64,000 nucleotides of DNA. Source: Candidatus Uhrbacteria bacterium. GTDB lineage: Bacteria; Patescibacteriota; Patescibacteriia; SG8-24. The translations under genes and the position numbers were made by a program. Numbering within the stretch: the stretch's first letter is position 1; every line of letters begins with the position of its first letter. Below the pieces are notes generated by a model that saw only the letters and a list, made by a program, of their open reading frames with translations, ran no database searches and was not told where the DNA came from. Below are positions 8,761 through 26,843 of this stretch, in pieces. The DNA is taken from NCBI GenBank assembly GCA_016929435.1, contig JAFGIV010000026.1:30097-94096 (forward strand). The letters are read 5' to 3'.

Positions 8761-10539
8761 ATGTCGATCAAGTCGTTTTTTGGCCTGGTTAGGGCCCATA
8801 AAATCATATCCCTTCTCATCCTGGCGGGGTTGGTTTGGGGCGGTCTGTCCCTAAGGGGCCGGCTGGTCCCGGAACGGGAGACCGTTTCCTATTCCACCCA
8901 GGCCGTTGAGACCAATACCATTATCATGAGCGTTTCCGGTACCGGACAGATTGCCAACGTGGAACAGGTTGACCTGAAACCCGGCACCTCCGAAACCGTC
9001 ACCCAAGTCAACGTCTCAAACGGCCAGTCGGTCAGGGCCGGAGCCGTTTTGGTTCGTTTGGACGCCAGCGACGTGGCCGAAGGCATCCAGGATGCGGAAA
9101 CCGCCCTGGAAACCGCCAAACTGCAGCTGGAAAGGCTCATGGAGCCGGCGGACGAATACGACATGCTTCAGGCTCAAAATTCCGTCATTCAGGCCAAGGA
9201 ATCGGAATCCGAGGCTGTGATAAGCCTGGGTACCGCCTATGACGATGCCTACGGCGACGTGACGGACGCCTTTCTTTCCCTTCCGAACACCATGTCCAGC
9301 CTGGTCGGGATAATCAACGACAGCGACATCAACGGCTATCAGGCGGACATTGACGCCTACTCCGACATTGCCTACCGTTATGACGATTCCGTTGACTGGA
9401 TAAGGCAATCCGTTCGGGCGGCCTATGACCTGGCGCGGGCGGATTATGACCTGTCCTATGCGGATTACAAGCGATCCGGAAGCGATGCGGACCGCGAAAC
9501 GATCGAACGGCTGCTCGACGAAACCCTGAAGGCGGCCGAGGGAATTTCCGTGACCGCCAAGGAAATGAAGAACCTTATCGATTTCGTTGAGGACATACTG
9601 ACGGTCCGCAACTATCCCGCCCCCCGAACCACCGAATCCGACCAGGAGGCCCTGAACGGACTGATATCATCCCTCAATTCCATGACCCGCAGCCTGAAGG
9701 ACGCCAAATCAACCGTTCGTAGCCGGGCAGACGCCGTCGTTAAGGCCGCTCGAACGGTCGAGGAGCGGGAAATGTCCCTCAATCGCCTGATGGAACCGCC
9801 GGACGAACTGGATATCCGTTCCCAAAGAATAGCCATTCAGCAGAAAGAGAACGCCCTGCGGAAAATAAAGGGCGGCTATTCCGATTACGTGATAACCGCA
9901 CCGTTCGATGGGGTGGTTGCCAACGTTGGGGTCAAGGTGGGGGAGTCGGTCTCGTCCGGCACGGTGGCCGTTACCCTGATTACCGCCCAGAAGGTGGCGG
10001 AAATTTCCCTGAATGAGGTTGACATCACCGGCGTATCCGTCGGCCAGAAAGCCACCATTGAATTCGATTCCATCGACGATTTCAGCATTACGGGAACGGT
10101 CGTGGAAGTGGATGCGATCGGCACCACCTCACAGGGGGTGGTGAGCTACGGCGTAAAGATCAGCCTGGACACCCAGGACGACCGGATAAAGACCGGCATG
10201 AGCGTTTCCGCCGCCATCGTCACCCAGGTCGTTCCCGGTACCCTGACGGTCCCCAATTCGGCGATCAAATCCCAAAACGGCCAGTCTTACGTCGAGATAC
10301 TGGAAAGGGACGGCAGCGGAAAGGACGTGCCTGTCAGGGTTCGGGTGACGGTCGGGACGTCCGATGACGCAAATACGGAAATTTTGGAGGGGCTGGCCGA
10401 AGGGGACATGGTCATAACGAAAACCGTCACTGGTGATGTATCCGGTTCCCAGACGGAAAAAAAATCATCGGGCAGCCTGATGCAGATGATGGGCGGAAGC
10501 GCGGCCGGCGGCCCGCCGGCCGGCGGGATGATGAGATAA
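8761..10539 (+). CDS. HlyD-family periplasmic adaptor (membrane fusion protein) of tripartite ABC efflux system
   Basis: TM anchor, long coiled-coil hairpin, beta-barrel and lipoyl-like domains. Directly precedes the ABC ATPase and FtsX permease. Start taken at the internal ATG (MSIKSFFGL). Confidence 0.7.
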   Translation: MSIKSFFGLVRAHKIISLLILAGLVWGGLSLRGRLVPERETVSYSTQAVETNTIIMSVSGTGQIANVEQVDLKPGTSETVTQVNVSNGQSVRAGAVLVRLDASDVAEGIQDAETALETAKLQLERLMEPADEYDMLQAQNSVIQAKESESEAVISLGTAYDDAYGDVTDAFLSLPNTMSSLVGIINDSDINGYQADIDAYSDIAYRYDDSVDWIRQSVRAAYDLARADYDLSYADYKRSGSDADRETIERLLDETLKAAEGISVTAKEMKNLIDFVEDILTVRNYPAPRTTESDQEALNGLISSLNSMTRSLKDAKSTVRSRADAVVKAARTVEEREMSLNRLMEPPDELDIRSQRIAIQQKENALRKIKGGYSDYVITAPFDGVVANVGVKVGESVSSGTVAVTLITAQKVAEISLNEVDITGVSVGQKATIEFDSIDDFSITGTVVEVDAIGTTSQGVVSYGVKISLDTQDDRIKTGMSVSAAIVTQVVPGTLTVPNSAIKSQNGQSYVEILERDGSGKDVPVRVRVTVGTSDDANTEILEGLAEGDMVITKTVTGDVSGSQTEKKSSGSLMQMMGGSAAGGPPAGGMMR

Positions 10540-10541
10540 GC

Positions 10542-11261
10542 ATGATCGAGATAAGTGACATCCGAAAGGCCTATCGGGTCGGGGACATCGAAACCCTGGC
10601 CCTGGACGGAGTCTCTTTCCGTATCGAGAAGGGGGATTTCGTGGCCATCATGGGCCAGTCCGGATCCGGCAAATCGACCCTGATGCACATTATCGGCTGT
10701 CTGGACTCGCCGACGTCCGGCCGGTATTTCCTCGGCGGCCATGACGTTTCCCGGATGACCGACGACGAGCTGTCGGACGTGCGGCGGGACCAGATCGGTT
10801 TCGTTTTTCAGGCCTTCAACCTCCTGCCGCGGGCCACGGCCATCCGAAACGTGTCCCTACCCCTGATTTACGCCAACGTCCTCCCCGAAGAGCGGGACCG
10901 CCGGGCCGGAGAGGCCCTGTTGGCCGCCGGCCTGCCGGAAGACCGCTGGCACCACCATTCCAACGAGCTGTCCGGCGGCCAGAAACAGCGGGTGGCCATC
11001 GCCCGGGCCCTGGTCAACAGTCCGGCCATCGTCCTGGCCGACGAGCCGACCGGTAACCTCGATTCCAAGACCGGGGAGGTGGTGTTGGAGACCTTCCGGC
11101 ACCTGAACTGCGACCTGGGACACACCATCCTGCTTATTACCCACGAACGTTACGTGGCCGAACACGCCGACCGGATCATCACCCTAAAGGACGGACGGAT
11201 CGTGTCCGACGAGGAGGTCCGGAGCAAGCATCCCTGTCCCGTTGAACGCCAAACGCCATGA
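10542..11261 (+). CDS. ABC transporter ATP-binding protein (MacB/LolD-like)
   Basis: Walker A GQSGSGKST, signature LSGGQKQRVAIARAL, Walker B IVLADEPT, H-loop. Confidence 0.9.
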   Translation: MIEISDIRKAYRVGDIETLALDGVSFRIEKGDFVAIMGQSGSGKSTLMHIIGCLDSPTSGRYFLGGHDVSRMTDDELSDVRRDQIGFVFQAFNLLPRATAIRNVSLPLIYANVLPEERDRRAGEALLAAGLPEDRWHHHSNELSGGQKQRVAIARALVNSPAIVLADEPTGNLDSKTGEVVLETFRHLNCDLGHTILLITHERYVAEHADRIITLKDGRIVSDEEVRSKHPCPVERQTP

Positions 11262-12478
11262 GAATCGCCGATCTCTTCCAGGAAACCTATGACGCCGTTA
11301 CGGTCAACAAGGTCCGTTCCGGCCTGACCATGCTGGGCATCGTCATCGGCATCGGTTCGGTAATCGCCCTCCTGGCCATGGGACAGGGCGCCAAGAACTC
11401 CATTGAATCCAGCATCCAGTCGATCGGCTCCAACCTGCTGATGGTCCGGCCGGGAGCCATGAGGGCCGGCGGCGGCGTCAGTTCCGGACGCGGAAGTGCC
11501 CAAACGCTCACCATGGACGATGTCGAGGCCATTCGGGGACAGGCGACAGCCGTACGGGCCGTGGCTCCGGAAATCAGCGGCCGCTATCAGGTTACGGCCG
11601 CCGGCACCAACACCAACGTTTCGGTGTATGGGGTTACGGAGGAGTACCAATCCGTCAAGAGCCTGACGGTCGAGTCCGGGTCATTCGTCTCCGCCCAGAA
11701 CGAGAAGGGCCGCTCCAAGGTCGCCGTCCTCGGCTCGGCCACCCGGGACGACCTTTTCGGGGAGGGAAACGACCCGGTCGGATCGAAGATCAAGATCAAC
11801 AGGATCGAGTTCAAGGTCATCGGTGTCATGGCCGCCAAGGGCGGTTCCGGGTTTGGCAGTGCCGATGAGGCCATCTACGTTCCGCTTGCCACGGCCCAGC
11901 AATACCTCTCCAGCAGCAGGTACCTGTCGATGATCAACGTCGAGGCCGCAAGTGCCGAGGCCATGGACCTGGCCGAATCCGAGTTGACCGATATCCTGCT
12001 GGCTGCCCACGACATCACCGACCCGACCCTGGCGGACTTCATGGTAATGAGTCAGGCGGATATTGTAGAGACCGCCTCGTCGGTGACGGACACCTTCGTC
12101 ACCCTGTTGGCAGCTATCGCCGCCATCTCGCTCCTGGTCGGCGGTATCGGCATCATGAACATGATGCTGACCACCGTCACCGAAAGGACCCGTGAGATCG
12201 GCCTGCGTAAGGCGATTGGTGCCCGGCGGGAAGACATCGTCCGGCAGTTCCTGATGGAATCCCTGCTGCTGACATTTGTCGGCGGAGCGATCGGCATCGT
12301 CGTCGGCTGGCTGATCGCCCAGGCCGCCATCCGTTTCGCCTCCATCCAGGCCAGCGTCTCCCTATCGGCGGTCGTCATGGCCGTCGGCGTCTCGGTCGGC
12401 ATCGGAGTGATCTTCGGATACTATCCGGCCCAACGCGCCGCCAAGCTCCGGCCGATCGAGGCGCTCCGGTATGAGTAG
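11258..12478 (+). CDS. ABC transporter permease, FtsX/MacB family
   Basis: N-terminal TM helix, large periplasmic MacB_PCD-like domain, C-terminal FtsX four-helix bundle. Start overlaps the ATPase stop. Confidence 0.8.
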   Translation: MRIADLFQETYDAVTVNKVRSGLTMLGIVIGIGSVIALLAMGQGAKNSIESSIQSIGSNLLMVRPGAMRAGGGVSSGRGSAQTLTMDDVEAIRGQATAVRAVAPEISGRYQVTAAGTNTNVSVYGVTEEYQSVKSLTVESGSFVSAQNEKGRSKVAVLGSATRDDLFGEGNDPVGSKIKINRIEFKVIGVMAAKGGSGFGSADEAIYVPLATAQQYLSSSRYLSMINVEAASAEAMDLAESELTDILLAAHDITDPTLADFMVMSQADIVETASSVTDTFVTLLAAIAAISLLVGGIGIMNMMLTTVTERTREIGLRKAIGARREDIVRQFLMESLLLTFVGGAIGIVVGWLIAQAAIRFASIQASVSLSAVVMAVGVSVGIGVIFGYYPAQRAAKLRPIEALRYE

Positions 12479-15742: not shown

Positions 15743-17098
15743 TCACGGAAATGTACGAAATTCAATTACGATTACGCCCAAAGCTTCCTTCTGATCACCG
15801 TAAAACGACTTTAGGATACCGAAAGCTGTTGTGGCAGAATCAGCATCAGGAACTATCTTACCGAAAGGTTCGTTTTTCAATGTCTCTTTGAAACTTGGAT
15901 ATTCTCGTTTGTCTATCACCTTAACGATCAGGGATTCCTCGTACGTCAAGAAACGAATGTTTTCCCCTTTTTTAATTCCTCTGATCGTATCGTAACCGAC
16001 GCGTACTTCAAGCGTTTTCTCGCCGGACTTTATGAAGTCAAAGAATCGTTTTTTTACACGAATTGTTCGTAAGGTATCCTGATTGATATCAAGACTCCAC
16101 TGTTGGGTTACGACATCGGATCGATATGCAGCCGGCAAAATGGCATCGATTTTCCAGCCGTGATGTTGGAGACACACAACCTCAGACGTCGTTGGGGTTA
16201 TGTGCAAATACAATTTACGTCCTCCATAGCCCGACAATTGGAATGGCAAATCGCTCAATAGGGCATTGAAGGCAAGGTCGTTTGAGGCTATCAGGGGCAT
16301 TAATTTGATGAGCGTTCCTTTTTTTGGGATAGCGGCTGCCACCCCTATTACCTTACCCTCGAAATCTGACGCCACAAAGATGAGCTTGTATTTGGAGTTA
16401 ACATCACCGGAGTCTCTGCGCCCGTATCCGGCAAATAGACTCTTAATCCAGACGTCGTCGATTCCGCTGAATGTTTTCGGTAGGGTGCTCAGGATTAATT
16501 GACGCACTTGTCCCATATCCTTGTCCTCTAACGGGAGAACGGAAATGGCTGGTATGTCTTTCTTGATCAGCGCCTCGTTTTCAGACAGTATCTTGTAAAA
16601 CATCAGTTCCCGACTATCCTTTTTGTAGTGACTATATGAACTTCCGGCACACACGAACCCTTGCCGAAGAAAGAAATTCGTGGCCGCCCGATTTTCCTCT
16701 GCTACAGTGCAATACAATTGTCTGGCACTTCGTTTTCGAACATAATTTTCGACATGGGCGTATAGTGCATATCCCAAACCGCACACACCTCGAAATTCTT
16801 CGGAAACTATGAGGGGACTGATTTTATATGTTTGTTGTCGTTTCCCGACCACATGAATCACACCCGCAAGTTGTCCATCGATTTCCCCGACGAACATTCG
16901 TTGTTCGTGAGAGAAGAAACCAATGTGGTCTCGTCCTCCGGCAAGATGCGTACGAATTATCCGCCGGGCACGAGCCTGATGATCGCCATCATAATATGCG
17001 GTCAGAACGCGGACCATGAGATTTGTCACCCAAGTTTCATCGTCGGCTTTTGCCTCTCTAATGTTAATGTACGGTTTTGTTTCCGTTTTCTTTACCAT
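15743..17098 (-). CDS. Tandem GNAT acetyltransferase fused to a C-terminal ASCH domain
   Basis: Two GNAT-like modules (motif A-like VGKRQQ / QGFV, and a second GKVIGVAAA) followed by an ASCH-like C-terminus. GC content is markedly lower than the surrounding genes. Confidence 0.6.
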   Translation of the reverse strand: MVKKTETKPYINIREAKADDETWVTNLMVRVLTAYYDGDHQARARRIIRTHLAGGRDHIGFFSHEQRMFVGEIDGQLAGVIHVVGKRQQTYKISPLIVSEEFRGVCGLGYALYAHVENYVRKRSARQLYCTVAEENRAATNFFLRQGFVCAGSSYSHYKKDSRELMFYKILSENEALIKKDIPAISVLPLEDKDMGQVRQLILSTLPKTFSGIDDVWIKSLFAGYGRRDSGDVNSKYKLIFVASDFEGKVIGVAAAIPKKGTLIKLMPLIASNDLAFNALLSDLPFQLSGYGGRKLYLHITPTTSEVVCLQHHGWKIDAILPAAYRSDVVTQQWSLDINQDTLRTIRVKKRFFDFIKSGEKTLEVRVGYDTIRGIKKGENIRFLTYEESLIVKVIDKREYPSFKETLKNEPFGKIVPDADSATTAFGILKSFYGDQKEALGVIVIEFRTFP

Positions 17099-17418: not shown

Positions 17419-20190
17419 TTATTCGTTCAAGATTTCGCTTACTTTTTTGATGGGTGCCCGGAAACGAACGTCTTTGAACTCGGCGAAGTGCCTTTCTCCA
17501 CAAAGCATCTTCATTTGTTCCCTGTCTCGCAGGTTCAAGTCATTTATATCGATCGTTGATTTGGTTTCCGCCACGAAATAGATTTTCTTGTCCCCGTTCA
17601 TCACTATGGCCCAATCCGGGTTGTATTTTCCGATCGGCGTCTCGATCCTGAACCAATAGGGGAGCTTGAAGTAGAACTGGATATCCTCATTTGATTCCAG
17701 GTCTGCGGCAAAACTTTTCTCGATCGCTGAGTCACAGGCAATGTTGTCGAACAGCGTCTTACCGGGATCGGAAACCGAAAAGTTTAGGGGGTCACCCAGA
17801 TAGGCGTAAAGCTCCTCATTTTCGAATTTCTGCATCTCCCATTCCTGTCCGGTAATCTTTTCGTACTTGATCCCGTCTATCATCATCCTGTTTAGGACCG
17901 TGTTGATGGCCGAAACCGCTCCTTCGATGAATTGCTGCGGGTTGACGATGATGTCCGCACCCCGCCCCGACGCCTTGACGATCTCCAGGATGGTGTCCTT
18001 AGTCAGCTTGGTGTGGTCCTGAATTCGGCCCAGGATATCGGGGATCGGCATGGCCCGGGCGTTAAGCCTCTTCGTTTTCGGCTGCCGTTTCATCTTGCCG
18101 ACCACGCCGGTCTCGGCGCTCATCTCCAATGCGGCCCGCCTGGTGACGATGTTCGGGGCCGTCACCGGAATTTCCTTAAGCAATTCGGACGCTTTCCTGA
18201 CCAGTTCTCCGGAATCGTAGTCGACTTGGTAGCGGGTGCGGTGCTTGATGCGGTTCCAGAGATCAAGGAAATTCTGGTCCAGGGCATACCCTTTCCTGAG
18301 TCGGGCGACGACTCGGTTCTGCCGGTTCTTGATTCGGTTGTCGAATCTGACCCCGCTTTCGTCCTCAATTTCCTGCTGGAGCCTTTTTGCGAAATCCTCG
18401 TAGCTTTCGTTGGCCACGACGGTCAGAATGTTTATGCTGTCGTCGAAGATGCGCTGGCCGTCCTGATTGACCGGCAGGCGCATGCCCCGGCCTATCTCCT
18501 GACGTTTCTTCATATCCGATTTCGTCTCGTTCAGGGTGCAGATCTGGAATACGTTAGGATTGTCCCAACCTTCCCGCAGGGCGGAGTGGGAAAAGATGAA
18601 GCGTATCGGTTCGTCCAAAGATAGGAGCCGTTCCTTGTCCTTCATGATCAGGCTGTAGGTATCGTCATCGGCGGCGGTGTTTCCGTTGGTGTCCCTTAGC
18701 CCTTTCTTGTCCACGGAAAAGTACCCGCCGTGGATCTTCTCGGGCGCATGTCCGACCAGTCCGTGGTATTTCGGGTTGGCCTGCATCTTCCGCACGGCAC
18801 CCTCGAACCAGACGGCGATCTTGCCCTTGCCGACCGTCCCGTCTTCTCCGTAGGTGCGGTAGTTGGCCACCCGATCGATGAAGAAAAGGGTCAGGGCCTT
18901 GATGCCCTTGCCCGCCAATTCCAGTTCCTTGTCGAAATGGTTCTCTACGGCCTTAGCCACCTGATAGCGCATCACCTCATCCTTCAGGACATCGTTGTCC
19001 TGTCCGGACCGGAAAACCTGGCCGTTGCTGAAAGTCACGGTTTGGCTATCGACATCGATCTCGTCCACGATGAAGCCGTCCCGGTACAGTTCCCGGCCGT
19101 TTGACAGGCGGAACAGGTCGGAACCGGCCCAAACGGTGACCGTTTTCCGCTCCACCCGCCCCTTACCGCCGCTTTTGTCCGCATCAACGGCAATCTTGGC
19201 CGTAACGACGTTCTTTTTCGACGTTATCGAATCGACCGCCACGAAGGCCTGGTTGATGTCCGCTTCGGCCATCACCGAATCGACCTCGATCCTCTTGACC
19301 AGGCCCAAATCATAGGCCTGGACCGGGTCGAGCCTATACACCTGGTTATAGGGGTTCTTGTGGGTCGCGGAATAGCGGAGGGTGCAGAGGGGATTGAGGT
19401 TCTCGATCGCCTTTCGGCGGATGTCGGTTTCCATGTTCTGCGGTTCGTCCACAATCACGATCGGCCGCACCCCCCTGATGCATTCGATCGGTACGCCCCA
19501 GTCGCTGTCCTGATAGATGATGTTCTGCCCCCGCTTGGACTCGCTGAACTTGGCGAACGAGTCGATGTTGATGACCAGCACCTGTAGGGCGTCGTTCGTG
19601 GCGAAGGCCTTCATCTGCCCCCGTTTTTTCGGGTCATAAACGTGAAAATCGACCTTGGGGCGGCCGTAGATCAGGTCGAAATGGTCCCTGGTGATCTCCA
19701 GGTTCTTCCAGACCCCCTCCTTGACGGCCAAACCGGGAACGACGACGATGAATTTGCGGAAACCGTGCTTCCGGTGAAGTTCATGGATGGTGCGGAGATA
19801 GACGTAGGTCTTCCCGGTGCCGGTTTCCATCTCCACCGTGAAATCTTTCCCCTTCAGCCGGTCCGCCGCCACTAACCCGTTCCGTGCCTGAATCTCCCTC
19901 AGGTTGTTCAACAGAAGCCCCTCATCCAGTCCGGATCCGTTTCCGATGATGAATTCGTTGCAGATCATCATCTGGGCGGTGGGGGACTGAAGCGCCACGC
20001 CGAAATCGTCGTCCCCGAAAGGAACCTGTCCCCGGAACAGGTCGGTCACGGCCTCGATGGCCTTCAGCTGGTATTCCTGTGTGGCGTCGAACTGGAGTTT
20101 CATAGGCTTTTTTAGGGTCGGTGCAAAGAGAATCATCTTATTTTGGCTAAAATTAGCCAAGCATATTTCTCTTTGCATTTGCGTTTGCAA
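17419..20190 (-). CDS. res: Type III restriction-modification system Res subunit (SF2 helicase plus PD-(D/E)xK endonuclease)
   Basis: Walker A ETGTGKT, DEPQ box (IVIVDEPQN), helicase C-terminal motifs, and a C-terminal nuclease motif (YFVAETKS). Confidence 0.85.
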   Translation of the reverse strand: MQTQMQREICLANFSQNKMILFAPTLKKPMKLQFDATQEYQLKAIEAVTDLFRGQVPFGDDDFGVALQSPTAQMMICNEFIIGNGSGLDEGLLLNNLREIQARNGLVAADRLKGKDFTVEMETGTGKTYVYLRTIHELHRKHGFRKFIVVVPGLAVKEGVWKNLEITRDHFDLIYGRPKVDFHVYDPKKRGQMKAFATNDALQVLVINIDSFAKFSESKRGQNIIYQDSDWGVPIECIRGVRPIVIVDEPQNMETDIRRKAIENLNPLCTLRYSATHKNPYNQVYRLDPVQAYDLGLVKRIEVDSVMAEADINQAFVAVDSITSKKNVVTAKIAVDADKSGGKGRVERKTVTVWAGSDLFRLSNGRELYRDGFIVDEIDVDSQTVTFSNGQVFRSGQDNDVLKDEVMRYQVAKAVENHFDKELELAGKGIKALTLFFIDRVANYRTYGEDGTVGKGKIAVWFEGAVRKMQANPKYHGLVGHAPEKIHGGYFSVDKKGLRDTNGNTAADDDTYSLIMKDKERLLSLDEPIRFIFSHSALREGWDNPNVFQICTLNETKSDMKKRQEIGRGMRLPVNQDGQRIFDDSINILTVVANESYEDFAKRLQQEIEDESGVRFDNRIKNRQNRVVARLRKGYALDQNFLDLWNRIKHRTRYQVDYDSGELVRKASELLKEIPVTAPNIVTRRAALEMSAETGVVGKMKRQPKTKRLNARAMPIPDILGRIQDHTKLTKDTILEIVKASGRGADIIVNPQQFIEGAVSAINTVLNRMMIDGIKYEKITGQEWEMQKFENEELYAYLGDPLNFSVSDPGKTLFDNIACDSAIEKSFAADLESNEDIQFYFKLPYWFRIETPIGKYNPDWAIVMNGDKKIYFVAETKSTIDINDLNLRDREQMKMLCGERHFAEFKDVRFRAPIKKVSEILNE

Positions 20191-20202
20191 AGAGGATTTA
20201 TT

Positions 20203-21081
20203 TCAAACGATTTCCGTTCCTATGGGTTTAGGATTGAATATGTAATATTTACAAGCATATTTTAGATATTCCCCAAGTTCATCCAGGTCAATATTTCCTT
20301 TTGTGACATCGTCGGGATAAATGCTGATTATTAGTTTGTCGCATACTGTTTTTTGTTGAACGGCAAATATAAAAGTTCTAATTATGTAATGAACGGAGGT
20401 TTTTCGCGTTAAATTAGTGGCCCTACCATGTCCAGTATTTATTAACGGAATAGTGATGACGTCATCTTTTTCGGCGTCATTCGATAAACTTTCCCACAAT
20501 CCACCGAGGGATGACAAAAAATCATTATTATCAGAAGTACTTCTGTTTTGTAGATTTTTATATGAATTTGCCAATAGATAAAATTTCTTATTTTTTTGTT
20601 CAATTTCTACCATTGACCCAATTGGGTATTTTCCATCGTCACCCCGCAGAAGATCTTTTTTTTGATTTATGTCAGTTATGAGGTGTTCAACTTGCGATGA
20701 ATAGTACCGACAAATAAGTTCATTTAGTATGCTTGGGTTTTTCGCTTTTATAATGTTTCCTCCTTGTGACGGATCAAATTCATTATTGATGGGCACAACA
20801 AGAGCACCTTTATTTTTGTGGGCATTACCAACTTTTATTTCAATCCAAACATCTTTCCCGTCTATTTTAGATCTAAACGTTGATGGAGGCCGTCTGACTA
20901 TTAATACAACAATAAATACGAACACTAAAATAATAACGGTCAAATTTGTATTAATGTTTTTATCTATCCAATCGTGACTTAAATAATTTCCAACGTTAAT
21001 AATCAACCAGATCACGCCTATGGCTGCCAGTGAGGAGTGGGAGATTAATGACAATCTTTTTGACCATCTTTTGCAGTTCAT
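20203..21081 (-). CDS. Membrane-anchored (2 TM) macro-like domain protein; candidate Thoeris-II ThsA-like effector
   Basis: Two N-terminal hydrophobic helices. Downstream the pattern ALVVPINNEF..GGNI (macro Gly-rich loop-like), a central beta strand, then TIPLINTGHGRATN (second phosphate-binding loop-like) matches macro-domain topology. Very AT-rich. A 1-nt gap separates it from the TIR gene. Confidence 0.45.
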   Translation of the reverse strand: MNCKRWSKRLSLISHSSLAAIGVIWLIINVGNYLSHDWIDKNINTNLTVIILVFVFIVVLIVRRPPSTFRSKIDGKDVWIEIKVGNAHKNKGALVVPINNEFDPSQGGNIIKAKNPSILNELICRYYSSQVEHLITDINQKKDLLRGDDGKYPIGSMVEIEQKNKKFYLLANSYKNLQNRSTSDNNDFLSSLGGLWESLSNDAEKDDVITIPLINTGHGRATNLTRKTSVHYIIRTFIFAVQQKTVCDKLIISIYPDDVTKGNIDLDELGEYLKYACKYYIFNPKPIGTEIV

Positions 21082-21082
21082 A

Positions 21083-21586
21083 CTATAGACCTAAACTGCC
21101 ATATACCTGATTTCCATAATAATAGTCTCCGCTTTTTCCTTCAGCTTTGAGTCTGTAATGTTCGTTCACCCAACTATTTATCGCTCGCCCCAGTATTTTT
21201 TGGTTAAAACTAACATGCATGGTCAACACATCGTTTAAGATGGCCGGGCATCTGTCGACGTCTTTGCTCCGTTTCCCATTCAGATTAACCACTACTATCG
21301 GCAAATTTCTATTTATCGCTTGTTCAATTTCCCATCTAACAAATTTATAAAGATATTTTGTGTTTTCTCCGACAAGCAAAACAAAAAGCTTGGCATTATC
21401 AAATCTTTCCCGCAGCTTCGCTTTTATTGTTTCTTCTTGTGAATCGCCCATCAGTTTATTCAAATCATGGGCGTTATGGAAATCGAATGTCGTATTTTCA
21501 CTTTCCTTCCATGCTTGCATCAACCTGTAATAGTGAATATCATTGTCGGCGTCAAAAGCCACGTATGTCTTATTTGCGTAGGCCAT
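21083..21586 (-). CDS. TIR-like domain protein (ThsB/DUF1863-like)
   Basis: N-terminal KTYVAFDADND..YY (FxSxxxxD-like strand A) and LFVLLVGENTKYLYKFVRWEIEQAI (SxW..WEI catalytic-Glu motif) match the bacterial TIR/ThsB pattern. AT-rich. Confidence 0.5.
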   Translation of the reverse strand: MAYANKTYVAFDADNDIHYYRLMQAWKESENTTFDFHNAHDLNKLMGDSQEETIKAKLRERFDNAKLFVLLVGENTKYLYKFVRWEIEQAINRNLPIVVVNLNGKRSKDVDRCPAILNDVLTMHVSFNQKILGRAINSWVNEHYRLKAEGKSGDYYYGNQVYGSLGL

Positions 21587-21643
21587 AGGTATTCTGATGA
21601 GAAATTATTAGCTGATATTCCTGTGCAGAATCTAATCGGCGTT

Positions 21644-23656
21644 TCATAAGTCGTTAATCCGTACCCCAATTTTTTTGGTTTCATCGGTTATAAGTGCGGC
21701 CGTGTTTAGTGCACTGTTTGTTAATCTATCTTTTCTGAGTTTCAGACGGTCATTGATGAAACGATGACGTAATTCAAATTCACTAAAAATCTCGCTCCAT
21801 TTTTTAACGTAAACCTTGTAATTATCGCAATTGAATATAAGACCATTGTGTTTTTCGCCGTGTGGTTTTGCACTCTCCGTTTCTCTTTCGATATATCCTC
21901 TAGAATCAAAAACGGTTCCAATTAGGATAAAGCGCCACATGGACTTTCTGGAATTGAATCTGGGCTCGTTGATTACTACTTCCATGTATCTTTTAATCTG
22001 TGAGACTTCTTTTTCGCCAATTTTTACAGAAGGTTTTTTGAGTTCAATTATAATATTGTCAATAGTATCATCCGTATTATAATTTTGACGACAGAGGAAG
22101 ATGTCCATTTCCTTGTTTTTGTCTGGGTCGTTCATTTTTGAATCGTTGTTATCACTATTGAGCATGTGCTGATAACTCCTAAGGGCAGATTCAAAATCCG
22201 CTTCGGTGGTACATACTAAATTGTACTGTTCTCCGAATAGCCAATAATTGTCGTCTATTATTTTTTGTAGATGATCCCTTTCATTTGCTGATAGAGTTTC
22301 ATTAAAGACGATTTGTTTAAGATATTCCACGGCCGAATAACGATCCGCTACGAGCTTCCCCATTTTGATAATGTTGGAAAGCTCTGTGGCTTCAAGGAGT
22401 TTTTTCAATAGGATTTTATCGTCTCGGTCAAGTTCTAAGACACTGTCTAGAATTGGCAATATCTGCTCTCTTTCATCAGAATCCAGCAACGCATTCAACA
22501 TCCGCATTATTGTCTTTCTTTGACCAGGACTTGCGGCAGTGAACACCTGTGGCTGAATCTTGCAGACGCCCTCAACGACATTTTCTAGATGCTCTTCTCT
22601 TAGCTGGTCCCATGGTGAATCTGAAAAAGTCGGAAATGTACCCTCATCCTTAAGTTTCTTGACGACTTCTGTGGCGTGCTCTACAAGAAACGGTTTTCGT
22701 TTTTTCCGAAGATATTTTCTCATTTCGGACATTAGAAACTTGTATTCGTCATCGTTTCTTGAATGTCCGATAAGTGAGTCTTGGCCTTCAGGCTGGTCGG
22801 GATTGTAACGGAAGTCGTTAAAAAAATCACTTTGTACGTAAATGCTGTGATAGAAACCGTCACCTTTCTTATTTAATTTTGTAGTGTCTTTCCAAACCTC
22901 TTTCGAATGGCTGTTGAGTAGATAATATCTTGAATACTCATTTTGCAACTGTAATGACCACTGTATGTAATTGACTTTGAACCTGGTGCCTGATTCAGCA
23001 TGAACAAAATCAATACAATCCCTATCATTAATTACTTCATCGTATTTGAGCGCCTCGCCGTTAATATAGATTTTGAAATCCTTTGATTTGTAGAGTTCCA
23101 AGAACCAGCCGAACTCTTGCTTTAGGTATCTCTCTGTCTCTTCCGGAGAGAAATTAAAAATTGAATCAAACGTTACCGTGGTGCCTTTGGGCGCAGTCGT
23201 CTTTTTGGACTTTGTCTTCCCGCCCAAGTATTGGTTAGTTTTGTCATCCTCAATTTCTATTTCATATTCATAAACACCGTCCTGCTTTTCATATCTAGTT
23301 AGCCAGCGTGCTTTAGCAGAAAACGAAACAAAGGACAGTCTGCCTATGCCATTTTTACCATGAGTCAACGTTTTGTGCTGATCATCCCTGTTCTTTTTCT
23401 CAGATTCGTAAAACGGTTTAAATTTATGAGAAAGCTCTTCTTGGGGAATGCCGTTACCATTATCTGATATCATGATTCTACTTATATTTCCGATAATATT
23501 TACCCCCTCATAATTTATGTGGACTTCTGAGGCATTGGCGTCAAATCCATTCCAAATGTATTCCGCGATCGCTTGATACGGTTTAAATTTACCGACGATC
23601 TCCTTTACGCCCTTATCGCCAATCTCAATTGTCTCAAAATCTGCTGATAATGGCAT
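21644..23656 (-). CDS. GHKL-family ATPase (MORC/HATPase_c_3-like) with C-terminal restriction-endonuclease-like region
   Basis: Bergerat-fold motifs: N-box EYIWNGFDANASE (ExxxNxxDA), G1 ISDNGNGIP, G2 HGKNGIGRLS. The C-terminal third carries a D...E-L-K arrangement (MDIFLC...IIIELKKP). The start at 23656 lies 4 nt after the mod stop; the track's alternative start at 23710 would overlap mod. Confidence 0.7.
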   Translation of the reverse strand: MPLSADFETIEIGDKGVKEIVGKFKPYQAIAEYIWNGFDANASEVHINYEGVNIIGNISRIMISDNGNGIPQEELSHKFKPFYESEKKNRDDQHKTLTHGKNGIGRLSFVSFSAKARWLTRYEKQDGVYEYEIEIEDDKTNQYLGGKTKSKKTTAPKGTTVTFDSIFNFSPEETERYLKQEFGWFLELYKSKDFKIYINGEALKYDEVINDRDCIDFVHAESGTRFKVNYIQWSLQLQNEYSRYYLLNSHSKEVWKDTTKLNKKGDGFYHSIYVQSDFFNDFRYNPDQPEGQDSLIGHSRNDDEYKFLMSEMRKYLRKKRKPFLVEHATEVVKKLKDEGTFPTFSDSPWDQLREEHLENVVEGVCKIQPQVFTAASPGQRKTIMRMLNALLDSDEREQILPILDSVLELDRDDKILLKKLLEATELSNIIKMGKLVADRYSAVEYLKQIVFNETLSANERDHLQKIIDDNYWLFGEQYNLVCTTEADFESALRSYQHMLNSDNNDSKMNDPDKNKEMDIFLCRQNYNTDDTIDNIIIELKKPSVKIGEKEVSQIKRYMEVVINEPRFNSRKSMWRFILIGTVFDSRGYIERETESAKPHGEKHNGLIFNCDNYKVYVKKWSEIFSEFELRHRFINDRLKLRKDRLTNSALNTAALITDETKKIGVRINDL

Positions 23657-23660
23657 ATCC

Positions 23661-25556
23661 CTACACGCACTCCACCCCCACCCCAACCGATTCCGCCTGG
23701 AGTAGGGCATTGGTCTTTAGCTGGTCATCGCCGCCGAAGGCGGTGTCCAGGCAGATGATCTTTTCCGGCTTGGCGGCTAGGATCTCGTCGAACATCTTCT
23801 TGGTAATCTTATCCGCCAAGCAGACGGCCAGCTTGCCGCCGTCAACGGAATAGTAGTCGATCCTGTCGGCCTTTTTCCTCTCGATCGGCACGTTCAGGTC
23901 CAGGCCGGATTTCAGGATCAGCTCGTAGAGGACATTCTCCTGGGTTGCGCCCTTCTCAAGGTTGTCCCTGAATATCTCCATCTGTTCCAGCAGTTCCTCC
24001 TCCGTCCGGATATCCTGGTTCCAGATCTTGAAGTTGCTTTTCTCCAGCCGGAAAGCCTTAAACCCGATATCCAGCCTCTTCCCGGTCTCCTTATCCGCCA
24101 GCTCACTGACCACCTTCTTCCCGGCCCGCCGAATCCGCTCCTTGGTGATGTCGGCTATCGTCCTGAACCCGGCCTTATGGGCCTCACTGCTCTCGTCCGT
24201 CTCTTCCGGCAGCTGAATGGAGATGCACTTGCGGTTCCCGCCGTCCTCGGCGTTCAGGGCTATGACGGCATGGGCGGTCGTGCCCGATCCGGCGAAGAAG
24301 TCGAGAATCGTATCGTCTTGTTTGCAAGCCAGCTGAATCGCTTTTTTGATAATGCCAGTTGGTTTAGGATTATCAAAAATTCCTTTTCCCACAATGTCCG
24401 CCAATTCTTCGTTGGAAGCATGGGTGTGTCCGACCTCATCAAAACTCCAAACATCTCCAGCGACACGCTCGTCTGGGAGTTCGGCCAAATAAGTTTTTAC
24501 AGATGGGGTTGTTTTCAAGTCTTTTCCAAACCAAAGTCTATTTTCTTCTTCCAGCCTCTTTAGCGTATTTTGACTATAGCGGGGAAATCTCCCCTGGGGT
24601 GCTTTCCAAGTAACTCCATTTTTGAATCTAAAAACATAGCTCTGACCATGACCACTTTTTGCGTGCAGTGGGGTTGCTTTCCATGGACCACGAGTATCAT
24701 CGTCTGGGTTTGTATATCTGTCATTCATTTCTGCGGTTCTTGGTAATCTCAAATCACGAAGATCATCCTTATTTTTGGCAAACAACAAAACATACTCATG
24801 TTGTTTAGATAAATACTTAGTATCATTCGCTACCGTATATTTACTATGCCAGACTATTTCCGTCACAAAATTATTTTCTCCAAACACTTCATTCATCGCC
24901 ATCCTCAAATTGTGAACCTCATGATCATCGATACTCACGAAAATAACCCCATCCTGCCGCAGAAGGTTCCGGGCCAGGAAGAGGCGGGGATAGATCATGT
25001 TCAGCCAGTCGGAATGGTAATGCCCGCGATCGGCGGTGTTGCGGAACAGGCCGTCGGAGCGGCGATTGCCCTCCTCGTCCCTGATTCCGGCTTCCTTCTC
25101 ATATTCGGCCTTGTCCTGCCGGAAACTGTCGTTGTAGATGAAATCGTTCCCGGTGTTGTAGGGCGGATCGATGTAGATCATCTTCACCTTCCCGTAGTAG
25201 GACTTCTGCATGACCTTCAGGGCCTCCAGGTTGTCCCCCTCGATGAAGACGTTCCCGGTCTTGTCGAAATCGACCGATTCCTTCCGGTTCGGCTTGAGGG
25301 TGGCGGCGGTGGAGGACTGGATGGCCCGGAAGCAGCCGGTCTTGCCGTGCCAACTCAGGCCGTATCGCTCCGGTCCGGTTTCGGCCAAATCGCCCAGAGT
25401 CTTCTTCAGGCGGTCGCAATCCACCTGACCTTCGGTGAAAATTTCCGGGAATCGGGACTTGAGGGTTCCCAAAAGGTCGGCTTGGGGGTTCAGGGACCGG
25501 CTATCGATCTTTTTGATATTCTTGGCTTTCTTAAGCGGTTTTCTGGCGATGGTCAT
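23661..25556 (-). CDS. mod: Type III restriction-modification system Mod subunit (N6-adenine/N4-cytosine DNA methyltransferase)
   Basis: Motif IV IYIDPPYNTGNDF and motif I LDFFAGSGTTAHA in beta-class order, with a target-recognition region between them. Confidence 0.85.
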   Translation of the reverse strand: MTIARKPLKKAKNIKKIDSRSLNPQADLLGTLKSRFPEIFTEGQVDCDRLKKTLGDLAETGPERYGLSWHGKTGCFRAIQSSTAATLKPNRKESVDFDKTGNVFIEGDNLEALKVMQKSYYGKVKMIYIDPPYNTGNDFIYNDSFRQDKAEYEKEAGIRDEEGNRRSDGLFRNTADRGHYHSDWLNMIYPRLFLARNLLRQDGVIFVSIDDHEVHNLRMAMNEVFGENNFVTEIVWHSKYTVANDTKYLSKQHEYVLLFAKNKDDLRDLRLPRTAEMNDRYTNPDDDTRGPWKATPLHAKSGHGQSYVFRFKNGVTWKAPQGRFPRYSQNTLKRLEEENRLWFGKDLKTTPSVKTYLAELPDERVAGDVWSFDEVGHTHASNEELADIVGKGIFDNPKPTGIIKKAIQLACKQDDTILDFFAGSGTTAHAVIALNAEDGGNRKCISIQLPEETDESSEAHKAGFRTIADITKERIRRAGKKVVSELADKETGKRLDIGFKAFRLEKSNFKIWNQDIRTEEELLEQMEIFRDNLEKGATQENVLYELILKSGLDLNVPIERKKADRIDYYSVDGGKLAVCLADKITKKMFDEILAAKPEKIICLDTAFGGDDQLKTNALLQAESVGVGVECV

Positions 25557-26153: not shown

Positions 26154-26843
26154 ATGTCCTCCTTCAAATCCGTTGCCGTCCGTGTCTTGAAAAGGGCGGG
26201 GAAACCGCTGCACAGCAAGAAAATTACCGAGATTGCCCTCGGGAACGGCTGGCTGAAATCGAGCGGCGCTACGCCGTGGGCCACGATGAACGCCCTCCTG
26301 GTTACCGACGTGAATGCCCGAAAGGACAAATCGCCGTTTACCAAAATCGGACCGTCGATTTTCGGACTTAACGCCGAGTTTGTTACCGAGAAACCCGCCA
26401 AAAAATCGGCCTCGGCTCCGATGGACGAGGAATTCGTCAAGCACTCGATCATCAAGTACATCTCCTGCAAGGGGTGGGGCTCGTTCCAGTATGGCGGGTT
26501 GCACGAACACGGTGTCGATATCCGGGCCAAGCAGCAGCGGTATTCCCGATACCTGAACATCGAGACGAAGGGGACATCGGGAAAGGGCTCGGCCAACGAG
26601 ACGGGTTTCGTCTATGGTTTGGGTCAGATTGTCACCCGGATCAGGGACACCGGCAAGACCCGAAACTACTACGGTATCGGCCTGCCGGAATCCTCCGCCC
26701 GAATCGCCCGGCGCCGTTTGCCGTGGCAGGTGGCCAAGAAGCTGCTCCTGTTCGTCTATTCCGTTTCTGCCGACGGCGCGGTGGAGGAGTATTCGTGGAA
26801 AGAATTGAGGAACTCACAGAAGGAGAAAAAGTCCATCTTTTGA
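26154..26843 (+). CDS. HARE-HTH domain plus PD-(D/E)xK nuclease-fold protein (restriction-endonuclease-like)
   Basis: N-terminus KKITEIALGNGWLKSSGATPWATMNALLVTD resembles the HARE-HTH winged helix. A central HGVDIRA...YLNIETKG gives a D-x(n)-E-x-K nuclease motif. Confidence 0.5.
   Translation: MSSFKSVAVRVLKRAGKPLHSKKITEIALGNGWLKSSGATPWATMNALLVTDVNARKDKSPFTKIGPSIFGLNAEFVTEKPAKKSASAPMDEEFVKHSIIKYISCKGWGSFQYGGLHEHGVDIRAKQQRYSRYLNIETKGTSGKGSANETGFVYGLGQIVTRIRDTGKTRNYYGIGLPESSARIARRRLPWQVAKKLLLFVYSVSADGAVEEYSWKELRNSQKEKKSIF

What the first reader, a model, noticed from the sequence alone, without database searches (positions are those of the whole stretch)
21644..23656. GHKL (MORC-like) ATPase with a C-terminal PD-(D/E)xK-like region, coupled 4 nt after the mod stop
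All three Bergerat-fold motifs are clearly visible: ExxxNxxDA, DNGNGIP and GKNGIGR. The last ~200 aa contain a D...ExK arrangement suggestive of a restriction-endonuclease fold, similar to DUF3883-like nuclease modules. GHKL-nuclease fusions in defence islands are poorly characterised. This one is embedded in an R-M operon and immediately upstream of a TIR gene.
Basis: partly seen in the sequence, partly recalled or inferred. Interest (0 to 1): 0.55.

Follow-up and report, generated by a model that had tools for sequence, protein, structure and literature searches.

The report
ATPase-nuclease defence gene inside restriction operon
A 670-residue protein joining a MutL/MORC-type ATPase to a DNA-cutting domain sits between the two genes of a type III restriction system. 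It belongs to an already described class of anti-phage nucleases (paraMORC3 / GHKL-type Shedu), so the finding is real but not a new kind of thing.

Summary
On the minus strand, 21644-23656 encodes a 670-aa protein whose ATG lies 4 nt after the type III mod stop. It has all GHKL motifs: E32xxxN36xxD39A40, D65NGNGIP, G100KNGIGR. It also has a C-terminal E476 / D518 / E538-x-K540 / Q553xxxY557 nuclease core. These residues are invariant in 41 close homologs and in relatives at 23-26% identity.

Fold searches match the N-terminal half to Hsp90/MutL/MORC. They match the C-terminal domain, weakly but only, to PD-(D/E)xK nucleases, including E. coli SduA.

The architecture is the published paraMORC3 class (Iyer 2008), also called GHKL-type Shedu (Gu 2023). 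VcSduA (Adams 2025) is an experimentally validated example of that class. It is not MORC proper and not DUF3883-like.

What I add is context. All 10 nearest relatives sit inside or at the end of R-M operons (type I, type III, PLD-helicase/MmeI-like methylase), on the same strand with gaps or overlaps of 1-27 nt. One of them is mod-GHKL-res. In the window, a 39-nt fossil of a res 5' end overlaps the GHKL stop as ATGA. This shows that the neighbouring TIR gene (a complete type II Thoeris, thsB-thsA) was inserted later.

Verdict: a new member of a known kind, with moderate-to-low interest.

The parts
21644..23656 (-). GHKL-nuclease gene (670 aa), paraMORC3 / GHKL-Shedu-like
   Evidence: ORF and start codon. 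HATPase_c_3 1.4e-18 and HSDR_N_2 3.1e-5. 1816 homologs. AF2 model pLDDT 80.
23162..23584 (-). GHKL (Bergerat-fold) ATPase domain, residues about 25-165. Motifs: I E32/N36/D39, II D65-G67-G69, III G100-G103-G105-R106, IV G158-T159.
   Evidence: Invariant columns. Foldseek matches to TRAP1/Hsp90, MutL, MLH1, MORC3/4 and GyrB at E 1e-12 to 1e-9.
22757..23149 (-). Second (S5/transducer-like) domain, residues about 170-300, with invariant K256, T259, N262, D266, H270, S271
   Evidence: Foldseek alignments of 313-430 columns extend beyond the ATP-binding domain into the middle domain of MutL, TRAP1 and MORC. Invariant columns. Which Lys contacts ATP was not determined.
22304..22750 (-). All-helical linker, residues about 303-451
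   Evidence: DSSP of the model gives helices 303-337, 348-367, 377-392, 396-407 and 411-451. In the members inspected individually, the weak PADLOC SduA hits map to residues about 390-477; such hits occur in 19 of 41 members.
21707..22294 (-). PD-(D/E)xK nuclease domain, residues about 455-650: E476 (FGE), D518, E538-x-K540, Q553xxxY557
   Evidence: These residues are invariant in close and distant homologs. Domain model pLDDT 90. Top Foldseek hits: EcoO109I, EndoMS/NucS (prob 0.99), E. coli SduA 8ps5, EcoRI, McrC, Can2, HamA, Cap4. HSDR_N_2 matches 40 of 41 members.
23661..25556 (-). Type III mod methyltransferase (DPPY and FxGxG motifs present)
   Evidence: N6_N4_Mtase 9e-42. PADLOC MTase_III 1.9e-206.
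21610..21648 (-). Fossil 5' end of a type III res gene (MKRRLDSAQEYQL...). Its ATG overlaps the GHKL stop as ATGA. Homology ends 20 nt before the thsB ATG.
   Evidence: 39-nt direct repeat, 30/39 identical to the true res start at 20066-20104. Sequence and translation. It is the only match of >=24/39 in the whole window; the best of 300 shuffles was 24.
21083..21586 (-). thsB (TIR) of a type II Thoeris; a secondary insertion
   Evidence: ThsB_TIR 2.3e-20. PADLOC ThsB 6.9e-75. No homolog in 80 related loci.
20203..21081 (-). thsA (N-terminal hydrophobic, putative TM, segments + Macro) of a type II Thoeris; a secondary insertion
   Evidence: ThsA_Macro 8.5e-28. PADLOC ThsA 2.4e-42.
17419..20103 (-). 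Type III res (helicase + C-terminal endonuclease). The likely true start is the ATG at 20103, not the TTG at 20190.
   Evidence: ResIII and RE_endonuc 6.2e-35. The PADLOC REase_III match (4.7e-277) starts at residue 30 of the long ORF. Sequence.

Best explanation
The gene encodes an ATP-gated DNA nuclease of the paraMORC3 / GHKL-type Shedu class.

Shown here: an intact GHKL ATPase plus a second (S5/transducer-like) domain; a roughly 150-residue helical linker; and an intact RecB/Shedu-like PD-(D/E)xK nuclease (E-D-ExK-QxxxY). The gene is carried as the middle gene of a type III mod-res operon.

Inferred by analogy with MutL, MORC and topoisomerase VI-B, and with the genetically validated VcSduA: two copies dimerise through their ATPase heads when ATP binds and form a clamp around DNA. 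ATP binding or hydrolysis then licenses the C-terminal nuclease to cut invading DNA without killing the host.

Inferred from context: the gene is co-transcribed and translationally coupled with the R-M genes. It probably acts as a second layer on DNA that the ATP-dependent R-M enzyme has already engaged or cut, for example on free ends, which canonical Shedu is reported to sense.

The ancestral order was mod-GHKL-res. The type II Thoeris pair thsB-thsA was later inserted 13 codons into a res copy.
For: ATPase half:
- HATPase_c_3 E=1.4e-18.
- Motifs I-IV are invariant in 41 homologs and in relatives at 23-26% identity.
- Foldseek matches TRAP1, MutL, MLH1, MORC3/4 and GyrB over 313-430 columns.

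Nuclease half:
- E476, D518, E538-x-K540, Q553 and Y557 are invariant.
- The domain model has pLDDT 90.
- Its top 20 Foldseek hits are all PD-(D/E)xK nucleases, including E. coli SduA at rank 4.
- Pfam HSDR_N_2 matches 40 of 41 members.
- PADLOC SduA models match 19 and 7 of 41 members, best E 3.9e-5 and 2.2e-5.

Literature:
- paraMORC3 is defined as GHKL + S5 + a RecB-like E-D-ExK nuclease found in R-M neighbourhoods (PMC2292703).
- Shedu homologs with HATPase_c_3 plus an Hsp90/MORC-like middle domain exist, and 602 of 5,499 Shedu genes lie inside R-M loci (10.1101/2023.08.10.552793).
- In VcSduA, E27A and K557A both abolish defence, and protection holds at all MOIs tested (PMC12137116).

Context:
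- All 10 nearest relatives (48-53% identity) are in R-M operons, on the same strand, with junction gaps or overlaps of 1-27 nt.
- L091 is mod-GHKL-res, with mod, GHKL and res 50, 52 and 55% identical to the window's.
- Among 80 more distant genome loci, at least 15 have an R-M gene as immediate neighbour and 8 are flanked by R-M genes on both sides.
- The res fossil overlaps the GHKL stop.
- GHKL, thsB and thsA form a low-GC block (GC3 0.30-0.41) between mod (0.66) and res (0.77).
Against: - No experiment exists for this protein or its close clade.
- The window protein itself matches no Shedu model in Pfam or PADLOC.
- Pfam SduA_C matches only 1 of 41 members.
- hhalign against a type 2 Shedu alignment gives 1.2% probability, although it does align the D/ExK core.
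- Foldseek E-values for the nuclease domain are weak, at best 6e-3.
- I could not obtain the VcSduA sequence, so direct homology to the validated protein is untested. A search seeded with proteobacterial relatives did not list it among the 120 best hits.
- Nesting in R-M operons in all 10 nearest relatives argues that this clade may not be autonomous.
- Dimerisation, clamp formation and end-sensing are inferred, not shown.
Confidence: 0.7

Rival explanations
1. It is an integral accessory subunit of ATP-dependent R-M enzymes, not an autonomous system. It would be a MutL-like matchmaker or clamp that is loaded by sliding or translocating Mod/Res, HsdR or type ISP complexes. It would then supply looping, second-strand cleavage or processive cleavage. 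This is Iyer, Abhiman and Aravind's proposal for paraMORCs.
For: All 10 nearest relatives are nested in or appended to R-M operons with start/stop overlaps. Arrangements include hsdM-GHKL-hsdS and hsdR-GHKL-hsdM-hsdS. mod, GHKL and res diverge to a similar degree between the window and L091. The fossil shows ATGA coupling to a res gene. The MutS-MutL analogy is drawn in PMC2292703.
Against: The partner systems are heterogeneous: type I, type III, type ISP, PLD-helicase/MmeI-like methylase, and dcm/type II. This makes a specific protein-protein interface unlikely. With my seed set, at least 57 of 80 more distant loci have no detected R-M gene within 7 kb. Res keeps its own intact endonuclease domain. 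VcSduA, which has the same architecture, defends on its own in E. coli (PMC12137116).
Confidence: 0.18
2. It is a guard or back-up for the R-M system, latent while the R-M enzyme is intact and unleashed when a phage anti-restriction factor inhibits it. The precedent is the anticodon nuclease PrrC, nested in the type Ic EcoprrI operon. That precedent is from my own knowledge and was not checked here.
For: The position inside R-M operons is the same as for PrrC. Other conflict genes (Fic, Schlafen/AlbA_2) recur in the same type I operons.
Against: No evidence of a physical link. The partners are heterogeneous. The VcSduA phenotype is direct protection rather than abortive infection.
Confidence: 0.06
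3. It is a type IV (modification-dependent) restriction enzyme placed next to a methylating system to catch phages with modified DNA.
For: Type IV enzymes commonly sit in the same islands. VcSduA lies beside the GmrSD-like GrwAB. GHKL-containing restriction enzymes exist: NCBIfam BbrUII/HgiDII matches the N-terminal part at E=7e-20.
Against: No modified-base reader domain (SRA, EVE/PUA, DUF262 or similar) appears in Pfam, PADLOC or the model. The BbrUII/HgiDII score is 71 against a cutoff of 550 and covers only the ATPase.
Confidence: 0.04
4. It is a housekeeping DNA-repair factor (a MutL-like nicking endonuclease), not a defence gene.
For: The overall MutL-like layout: N-terminal GHKL+S5, a linker, and a C-terminal endonuclease.
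Against: Distribution is sporadic across phyla and archaea. It occurs on plasmids, conjugative elements and phages. It lies in a low-GC island. Its neighbours are R-M genes, TA genes and recombinases.
Confidence: 0.02

Closest known systems
paraMORC3 family (Iyer, Abhiman & Aravind 2008, Biol Direct 3:8; PMC2292703)
   Same: N-terminal GHKL with intact motifs, a second S5-type domain, and a conserved C-terminal RecB-like restriction-endonuclease-fold domain with E-D-ExK. Sporadic, laterally mobile distribution, including Bacteroidetes and Proteobacteria. Occurs in R-M neighbourhoods, including type III.
   Different: The 2008 paper notes that many nuclease-bearing paraMORC3 genes are standalone. 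The clade nearest this gene is nested in R-M operons in all 10 cases examined. I could not compare with the paper's own sequence lists because the supplement is not held.
VcSduA, Vibrio cholerae type I-D Shedu with a GHKL N-terminal domain (Adams et al. 2025; PMC12137116)
   Same: Same architecture and similar catalytic positions (VcSduA E27 and K557; here E32 and K540). It also lies in a defence island next to a restriction system.
   Different: The VcSduA nuclease domain is reported as DUF4263; the window protein does not reach any DUF4263 model. VcSduA is a standalone gene that works alone in E. coli.
Canonical Shedu SduA (B. cereus, E. coli; DUF4263/PF14082; Gu et al. 2023, Loeff et al. 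2023)
   Same: A PD-(D/E)xK nuclease preceded by a helical linker. PADLOC SduA models match 19 of 41 family members weakly. E. coli SduA (8ps5) is Foldseek rank 4. Shedu genes are often found inside R-M loci.
   Different: A different N-terminal sensor: GHKL+S5 here, against sPC4/Whirly-type or other domains. Tetramer/octamer regulation is not known to apply. Profile-profile comparison with a type 2 Shedu subfamily is insignificant.
MutL (mismatch-repair endonuclease)
   Same: GHKL+S5 ATPase, a linker, then a C-terminal endonuclease. MutL is an ATP-driven dimeric clamp that licenses DNA incision. MutL and MLH1 are among the best sequence and fold matches.
   Different: The MutL endonuclease is a different, metal-binding fold, not PD-(D/E)xK. 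MutL is a vertically inherited housekeeping gene. NCBIfam MutL scores here are 37 bits or less, against cutoffs of 180 or more.
BbrUII/HgiDII family restriction enzymes (NCBIfam NF050001)
   Same: A restriction enzyme family with a related N-terminal GHKL domain; it is the best NCBIfam hit. Related PADLOC REase_II models match family members.
   Different: Only residues 30-207 match. The score is 71 against a cutoff of 550.
PrrC/EcoprrI (a defence nuclease nested in a type Ic R-M operon; from my own knowledge)
   Same: An independent nuclease gene nested between R-M subunit genes.
   Different: No sequence or fold relation. PrrC is an ABC-type ATPase anticodon nuclease that targets tRNA.

Membership tests
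GHKL ATPase superfamily | Bergerat-fold motifs I (ExxxNxxD), II (DxGxG), III (GxxGxG) and IV (T) | tested here: met
   E32/N36/D39, D65/G67/G69, G100/G103/G105 and T159 are invariant. HATPase_c_3 scores 67.7 bits against a cutoff of 25.
GHKL ATPase superfamily | Fold similarity to solved GHKL+transducer modules | tested here: met
   Foldseek matches TRAP1, MutL, MLH1, MORC3/4 and GyrB at E 1e-12 to 1e-9.
MORC proper (Iyer 2008) | GhXhhpXXRhl motif in the S5 domain | tested here: not met
   A regular-expression search for the motif finds it in 0 of 41 family members.
paraMORC3 (Iyer 2008) | GHKL with intact motifs plus a second S5-type domain | tested here: met
paraMORC3 (Iyer 2008) | Conserved C-terminal globular domain of the restriction-endonuclease fold with E-D-ExK, RecB-like | tested here: met
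   E476, D518, E538-x-K540 and Q553xxxY557 are invariant. PD-(D/E)xK fold hits. HSDR_N_2 matches 40 of 41 members.
paraMORC3 (Iyer 2008) | Direct sequence match to the paper's listed members | not testable with these tools
   The supplement is held only as a 770-character stub. A Flavobacterium johnsoniae homolog exists (L037), but its identity with the paper's Fjoh gene is unknown.
Shedu (SduA, DUF4263 / PF14082) | Significant match of the nuclease domain to DUF4263 models | tested here: inconclusive
   The window protein has no hit. Family level: Pfam SduA_C matches 1 of 41 members (1.2e-3); PADLOC SduA matches 19 and 7 of 41, best 3.9e-5 and 2.2e-5. Foldseek to 8ps5: E 1.6e-2, prob 0.69. 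hhalign against type 2 Shedu: prob 1.2%.
Shedu (SduA, DUF4263 / PF14082) | Nuclease-domain-mediated homotetramer | not testable with these tools
   No multimer prediction was available.
VcSduA-type (type I-D Shedu, GHKL N-terminal domain) | GHKL catalytic Glu and nuclease Lys present | tested here: met
   E32 and K540 are invariant. They correspond to E27 and K557 of VcSduA only by motif, not by alignment.
VcSduA-type (type I-D Shedu, GHKL N-terminal domain) | Sequence homology to VcSduA (A1552VC_00276) | not testable with these tools
   The sequence table is truncated in the held supplement. VcSduA was not among the 120 best hits of a profile of proteobacterial relatives.
BbrUII/HgiDII restriction enzyme (NF050001) | Full-length match above the curated cutoff | tested here: not met
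   71.1 bits against a cutoff of 550; only residues 30-207 match.
DUF3883-type nuclease module | Match to Pfam DUF3883 | tested here: not met
   DUF3883 is not among the families listed for the window protein at E<=0.01, nor among the 25 most frequent families for the 41 members at E<=1.
Type III R-M (the host operon) | Mod (N6_N4 MTase) plus Res (SF2 helicase + C-terminal endonuclease) | tested here: met
Type II Thoeris (the inserted neighbours) | ThsB TIR plus ThsA with a Macro domain and N-terminal hydrophobic (putative TM) segments | tested here: met
   ThsB_TIR 2.3e-20 and ThsA_Macro 8.5e-28. PADLOC 6.9e-75 and 2.4e-42. The TM segments were read from the sequence, not predicted with a tool.

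The most novel reading that the evidence does not exclude
The R-M-nested clade of GHKL-nucleases is not an autonomous Shedu. It would be a MutL-like third component shared by ATP-dependent R-M systems (types I, III, ISP and PLD-helicase/MmeI). Sliding or translocating R-M complexes, or the DNA ends they create, would load or activate it, turning a rare R-M cut into complete destruction of the invading DNA.
Probability: 0.2. Interest if true: 0.65.

Novelty: new member of a known kind. Interest (0 to 1): 0.33.

Why it matters
The gene itself adds little: the architecture has been described since 2008 and one example was validated in 2025.

What may be useful is the context. In the clade closest to this gene, all 10 members examined are translationally coupled to R-M genes of unrelated types. 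The window also preserves a molecular fossil showing mod-GHKL-res as the ancestral unit, with Thoeris inserted later. The result is three layers of defence in one transcription unit, in a candidate-phyla-radiation bacterium (Candidatus Uhrbacteria).

This gives a concrete, compact test case (mod-GHKL-res, as in L091) for a question the Shedu literature raises but has not tested: do Shedu-type nucleases cooperate mechanistically with R-M enzymes?

Tried and rejected
- DUF3883-like nuclease: no Pfam signal.
- MORC proper: the S5 motif is absent in 41 of 41 members.
- BbrUII/HgiDII, MutL, Topo VI-B and MzaB membership: only the ATPase part matches, far below the cutoffs.
- Functional link to the TIR gene, as in paraMORC4-TIR: rejected. 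No ThsA or ThsB homolog occurs in 80 related loci or next to any of the 10 nearest relatives. The res fossil also shows that Thoeris is an insertion.
- PDB sequence searches with the nuclease profile and with a member's C-terminus: nothing useful.
- An HMM of the nuclease domain did not detect a canonical Shedu gene in locus L045.
- hhalign against a type 2 Shedu alignment was insignificant.
- VcSduA sequence: the supplement table is truncated. The Gu et al. supplement is not held. VcSduA was not among the hits of a profile of proteobacterial relatives.
- Promoter and terminator scans across 15.5-27 kb were not above shuffled expectation.
- No tRNA genes in the window.
Full report
**What is there.** The reported coordinates hold a minus-strand gene, 21644-23656, of 670 codons. 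The mechanical ORF extends to 23710, but that part overlaps the upstream gene. The ATG at 23656 follows the upstream stop (TAG, 23663-23661) by 4 nt.

The minus-strand gene order is:
- type III mod, 23661-25556 (PADLOC MTase_III 1.9e-206)
- the GHKL gene
- thsB, 21083-21586 (ThsB 6.9e-75)
- thsA, 20203-21081 (Macro domain, 8.5e-28, plus N-terminal hydrophobic segments)
- type III res, 17419-20103 (REase_III 4.7e-277; helicase plus RE_endonuc 6.2e-35)
- a GNAT-ASCH fusion, 15743-17098

An identical protein is deposited as 'ATP-binding protein [Candidatus Uhrbacteria bacterium]'. A 100% identical copy of the whole operon occurs in an independent sample (L090).

**The protein.** Pfam HATPase_c_3 matches at 1.4e-18.

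In an alignment with 40 full-length homologs (40-53% identity), all GHKL motif residues are invariant. So is a set in the second domain (K256, T259, N262, D266, H270, S271). So are, in the C-terminal part, E476 (FGE), D518 (EMD), E538-L-K540, Q553 and Y557, which is a RecB-type E-D-ExK-QxxxY pattern. The same residues remain invariant when relatives at 23-26% identity are added from Salmonella, Psychrobacter, Phaeobacter, Sinorhizobium and Streptomyces plasmids.

The full-length AlphaFold model (pLDDT 80) matches Hsp90/TRAP1, MutL, MLH1, MORC3/4 and GyrB over 313-430 columns. That coverage includes the ATP-binding domain and the transducer-type second domain.

Residues 440-650, modelled separately (pLDDT 90), retrieve PD-(D/E)xK nucleases throughout the top 20 hits: EcoO109I, EndoMS/NucS (probability 0.99), E. 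coli SduA, EcoRI, McrC, Can2, Avs3, HamA, Cap4 and MspJI. The E-values are weak, at best 6e-3. Pfam's PD-(D/E)xK family HSDR_N_2 matches 40 of 41 members just below its cutoff.

**What it is called.** The MORC-defining S5 motif is absent in all 41 members, and no DUF3883 match is seen.

The architecture is that of paraMORC3 in Iyer, Abhiman and Aravind (2008): GHKL + S5 + a C-terminal RecB-like E-D-ExK nuclease, found in R-M neighbourhoods (PMC2292703). Gu et al. [quoted passage not shown] They also report 602 of 5,499 Shedu genes inside R-M loci. Adams et al. (2025) showed that VcSduA, which has this architecture, protects E. coli and V. cholerae, that E27A and K557A abolish protection, and that protection holds at all MOIs tested.

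Whether the window's nuclease is a bona fide DUF4263 domain is unresolved:
- The window protein reaches no Shedu model.
- Pfam SduA_C matches 1 of 41 members.
- PADLOC SduA models match 19 and 7 of 41 members, best E 3.9e-5 and 2.2e-5.
- hhalign against a type 2 Shedu subfamily aligns the D/ExK core but is insignificant.

I could not obtain the VcSduA sequence.

The family is large and uniform: 1816 word-indexed hits, and 792 cluster representatives (50% identity) at E<=1e-30, nearly all 650-690 aa. A pattern scan confirmed relatives in 483 stretches of the one-genome-per-species collection, including archaea. Relatives also occur on 46 plasmids and in two Pasteurella phages.

**Context.** I looked up or reconstructed the neighbourhoods of the 10 nearest relatives (48-53% identity). 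All are in R-M operons, on the same strand, with junctions of 1-27 nt or overlaps:
- type III mod-GHKL-res (L091)
- type III res-mod-GHKL, on a conjugative element (L095)
- hsdM-GHKL-hsdS (two cases)
- hsdR-GHKL-hsdM-hsdS (three cases)
- GHKL-hsdM-hsdS, on a locus where the upstream gene is cut off by the contig end
- PLD-SNF2 helicase, then an MmeI-like methylase, then GHKL
- the 100% identical copy of the window operon (L090)

Among 80 more distant genome loci (38-47% identity), a seed-limited search finds an R-M gene within 7 kb in at least 23. It finds one as immediate neighbour in 15, and on both sides in 8. Pfam counts over the 45 tightly coupled neighbours are dominated by HsdR, HsdS and methylases. 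Distant relatives on plasmids abut a type ISP enzyme (overlapping stop and start) and a dcm/LlaMI pair.

None of these loci has Thoeris genes.

**History of this locus.** GHKL, thsB and thsA form a sharply bounded low-GC block (GC3 0.40, 0.41 and 0.30) between mod (0.66) and res (0.77).

A 39-nt sequence at 21610-21648 is 30/39 identical to the true 5' end of res (20066-20104). It encodes MKRRLDSAQEYQL, against MKLQFDATQEYQL for res. Its ATG overlaps the GHKL stop as ATGA, and the homology ends 20 nt before the thsB start. It is the only match of >=24/39 in the 64-kb window, and 300 shuffles of the block never exceed 24.

So the GHKL gene was once followed directly by, and coupled to, a res gene. 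That is exactly the arrangement in L091, whose mod, GHKL and res are 50, 52 and 55% identical to the window's. Thoeris was inserted afterwards.

**Mechanism.**

*Shown:* intact ATPase and nuclease catalytic residues under strong conservation; a MutL-like domain order; operon coupling to R-M genes.

*Inferred:* ATP-driven dimerisation of the GHKL heads into a DNA clamp that licenses the nuclease, as in MutL, MORC and topoisomerase VI-B, and as proposed for VcSduA.

*Further inferred from context:* action downstream of the R-M enzyme, for example on DNA ends, which canonical Shedu is reported to sense (10.1101/2023.08.10.552762; abstract).

The main rival is that this clade is a true accessory subunit of ATP-dependent R-M enzymes (Iyer's model). 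The 10-of-10 nesting favours it. The heterogeneity of partner systems, the many R-M-free relatives and the autonomy of VcSduA count against it.

**Verdict.** The finding is real and correctly read, but it belongs to a known class. Novelty: a new member of a known kind. Interest is moderate-to-low. The R-M-nested clade and the fossil junction are the only parts a specialist might want to follow up.

Noticed in passing
window 21610-21648: A 39-nt fossil of a type III res 5' end (30/39 identical to 20066-20104). Its ATG overlaps the GHKL stop as ATGA. It marks the point where thsB-thsA was inserted.
   Followed up: yes
window 20104-23660: A sharply bounded low-GC block (GHKL, thsB, thsA; GC3 0.30-0.41) between mod (0.66) and res (0.77), in a window of 57% GC. 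This suggests acquisition from a low-GC donor.
   Followed up: partly
window 20203-21586: A complete type II Thoeris (ThsB TIR + ThsA Macro with N-terminal hydrophobic segments) nested inside the type III R-M operon. No ThsA or ThsB homolog was found in 80 related GHKL loci, and Thoeris genes flank none of the other nearest relatives.
   Followed up: partly
window 15743-17098; L007 10630-12635: A GNAT-ASCH fusion protein lies directly downstream of res and is conserved in the identical copy L090. In a Sinorhizobium plasmid, separate ASCH and GNAT genes sit next to a distant GHKL-nuclease homolog. This may be a recurrent defence-island module. The only PADLOC hit is weak (PDC-M11A, 5.5e-4).
   Followed up: no
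window 26154-26843 (+): A HARE-HTH protein (E=1e-16) is transcribed divergently from mod. Its C-terminal 150 residues match no Pfam family or PDB sequence. The segment 'DIRAK...IETKG' looks like a possible D...ExK.
   Followed up: partly
window 24500-24999: GC drops to 0.41 inside mod, against 0.52-0.59 on either side. This might be a swapped target-recognition domain.
   Followed up: no
window 20142-20196: Two adjacent hairpins (8 and 11 pairs) lie in the 99-nt spacer between the thsA stop and the res start. Overall, terminator-like sites in the region are not above shuffled expectation.
   Followed up: no
window 17419-20190: The res ORF as listed starts at a TTG at 20190. The PADLOC model match and the fossil repeat both point to the ATG at 20103 as the real start.
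   Followed up: partly
L045 11946-12869: In a Saccharicrinis genome, a canonical type 2 Shedu gene (SduA_C 1.7e-19) begins within or immediately after the 3' end of a GHKL-nuclease homolog (tblastn match 10001-11917). Two Shedu-like nucleases therefore sit in tandem.
   Followed up: partly
L011 3639-12037: In a Candidatus Moranbacteria contig, close homologs of this window's mod and res lie upstream of a GHKL homolog (order mod-X-res-X-GHKL). Both mod and res appear split into two ORFs each, possibly by frameshifts.
   Followed up: no
L074 14026-15555 and 5-6 other loci; L092 4843-5997; L097 10494-11372: Schlafen/AlbA_2 + HATPase_c_4 genes and Fic genes recur in the same type I R-M operons that carry the GHKL-nuclease.
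   Followed up: no
Phage records OR544134.1 8027-9874 and OR544131.1 13818-15665: Two Pasteurella phages encode full-length distant homologs (24.5% identity), annotated as hypothetical proteins.
   Followed up: no
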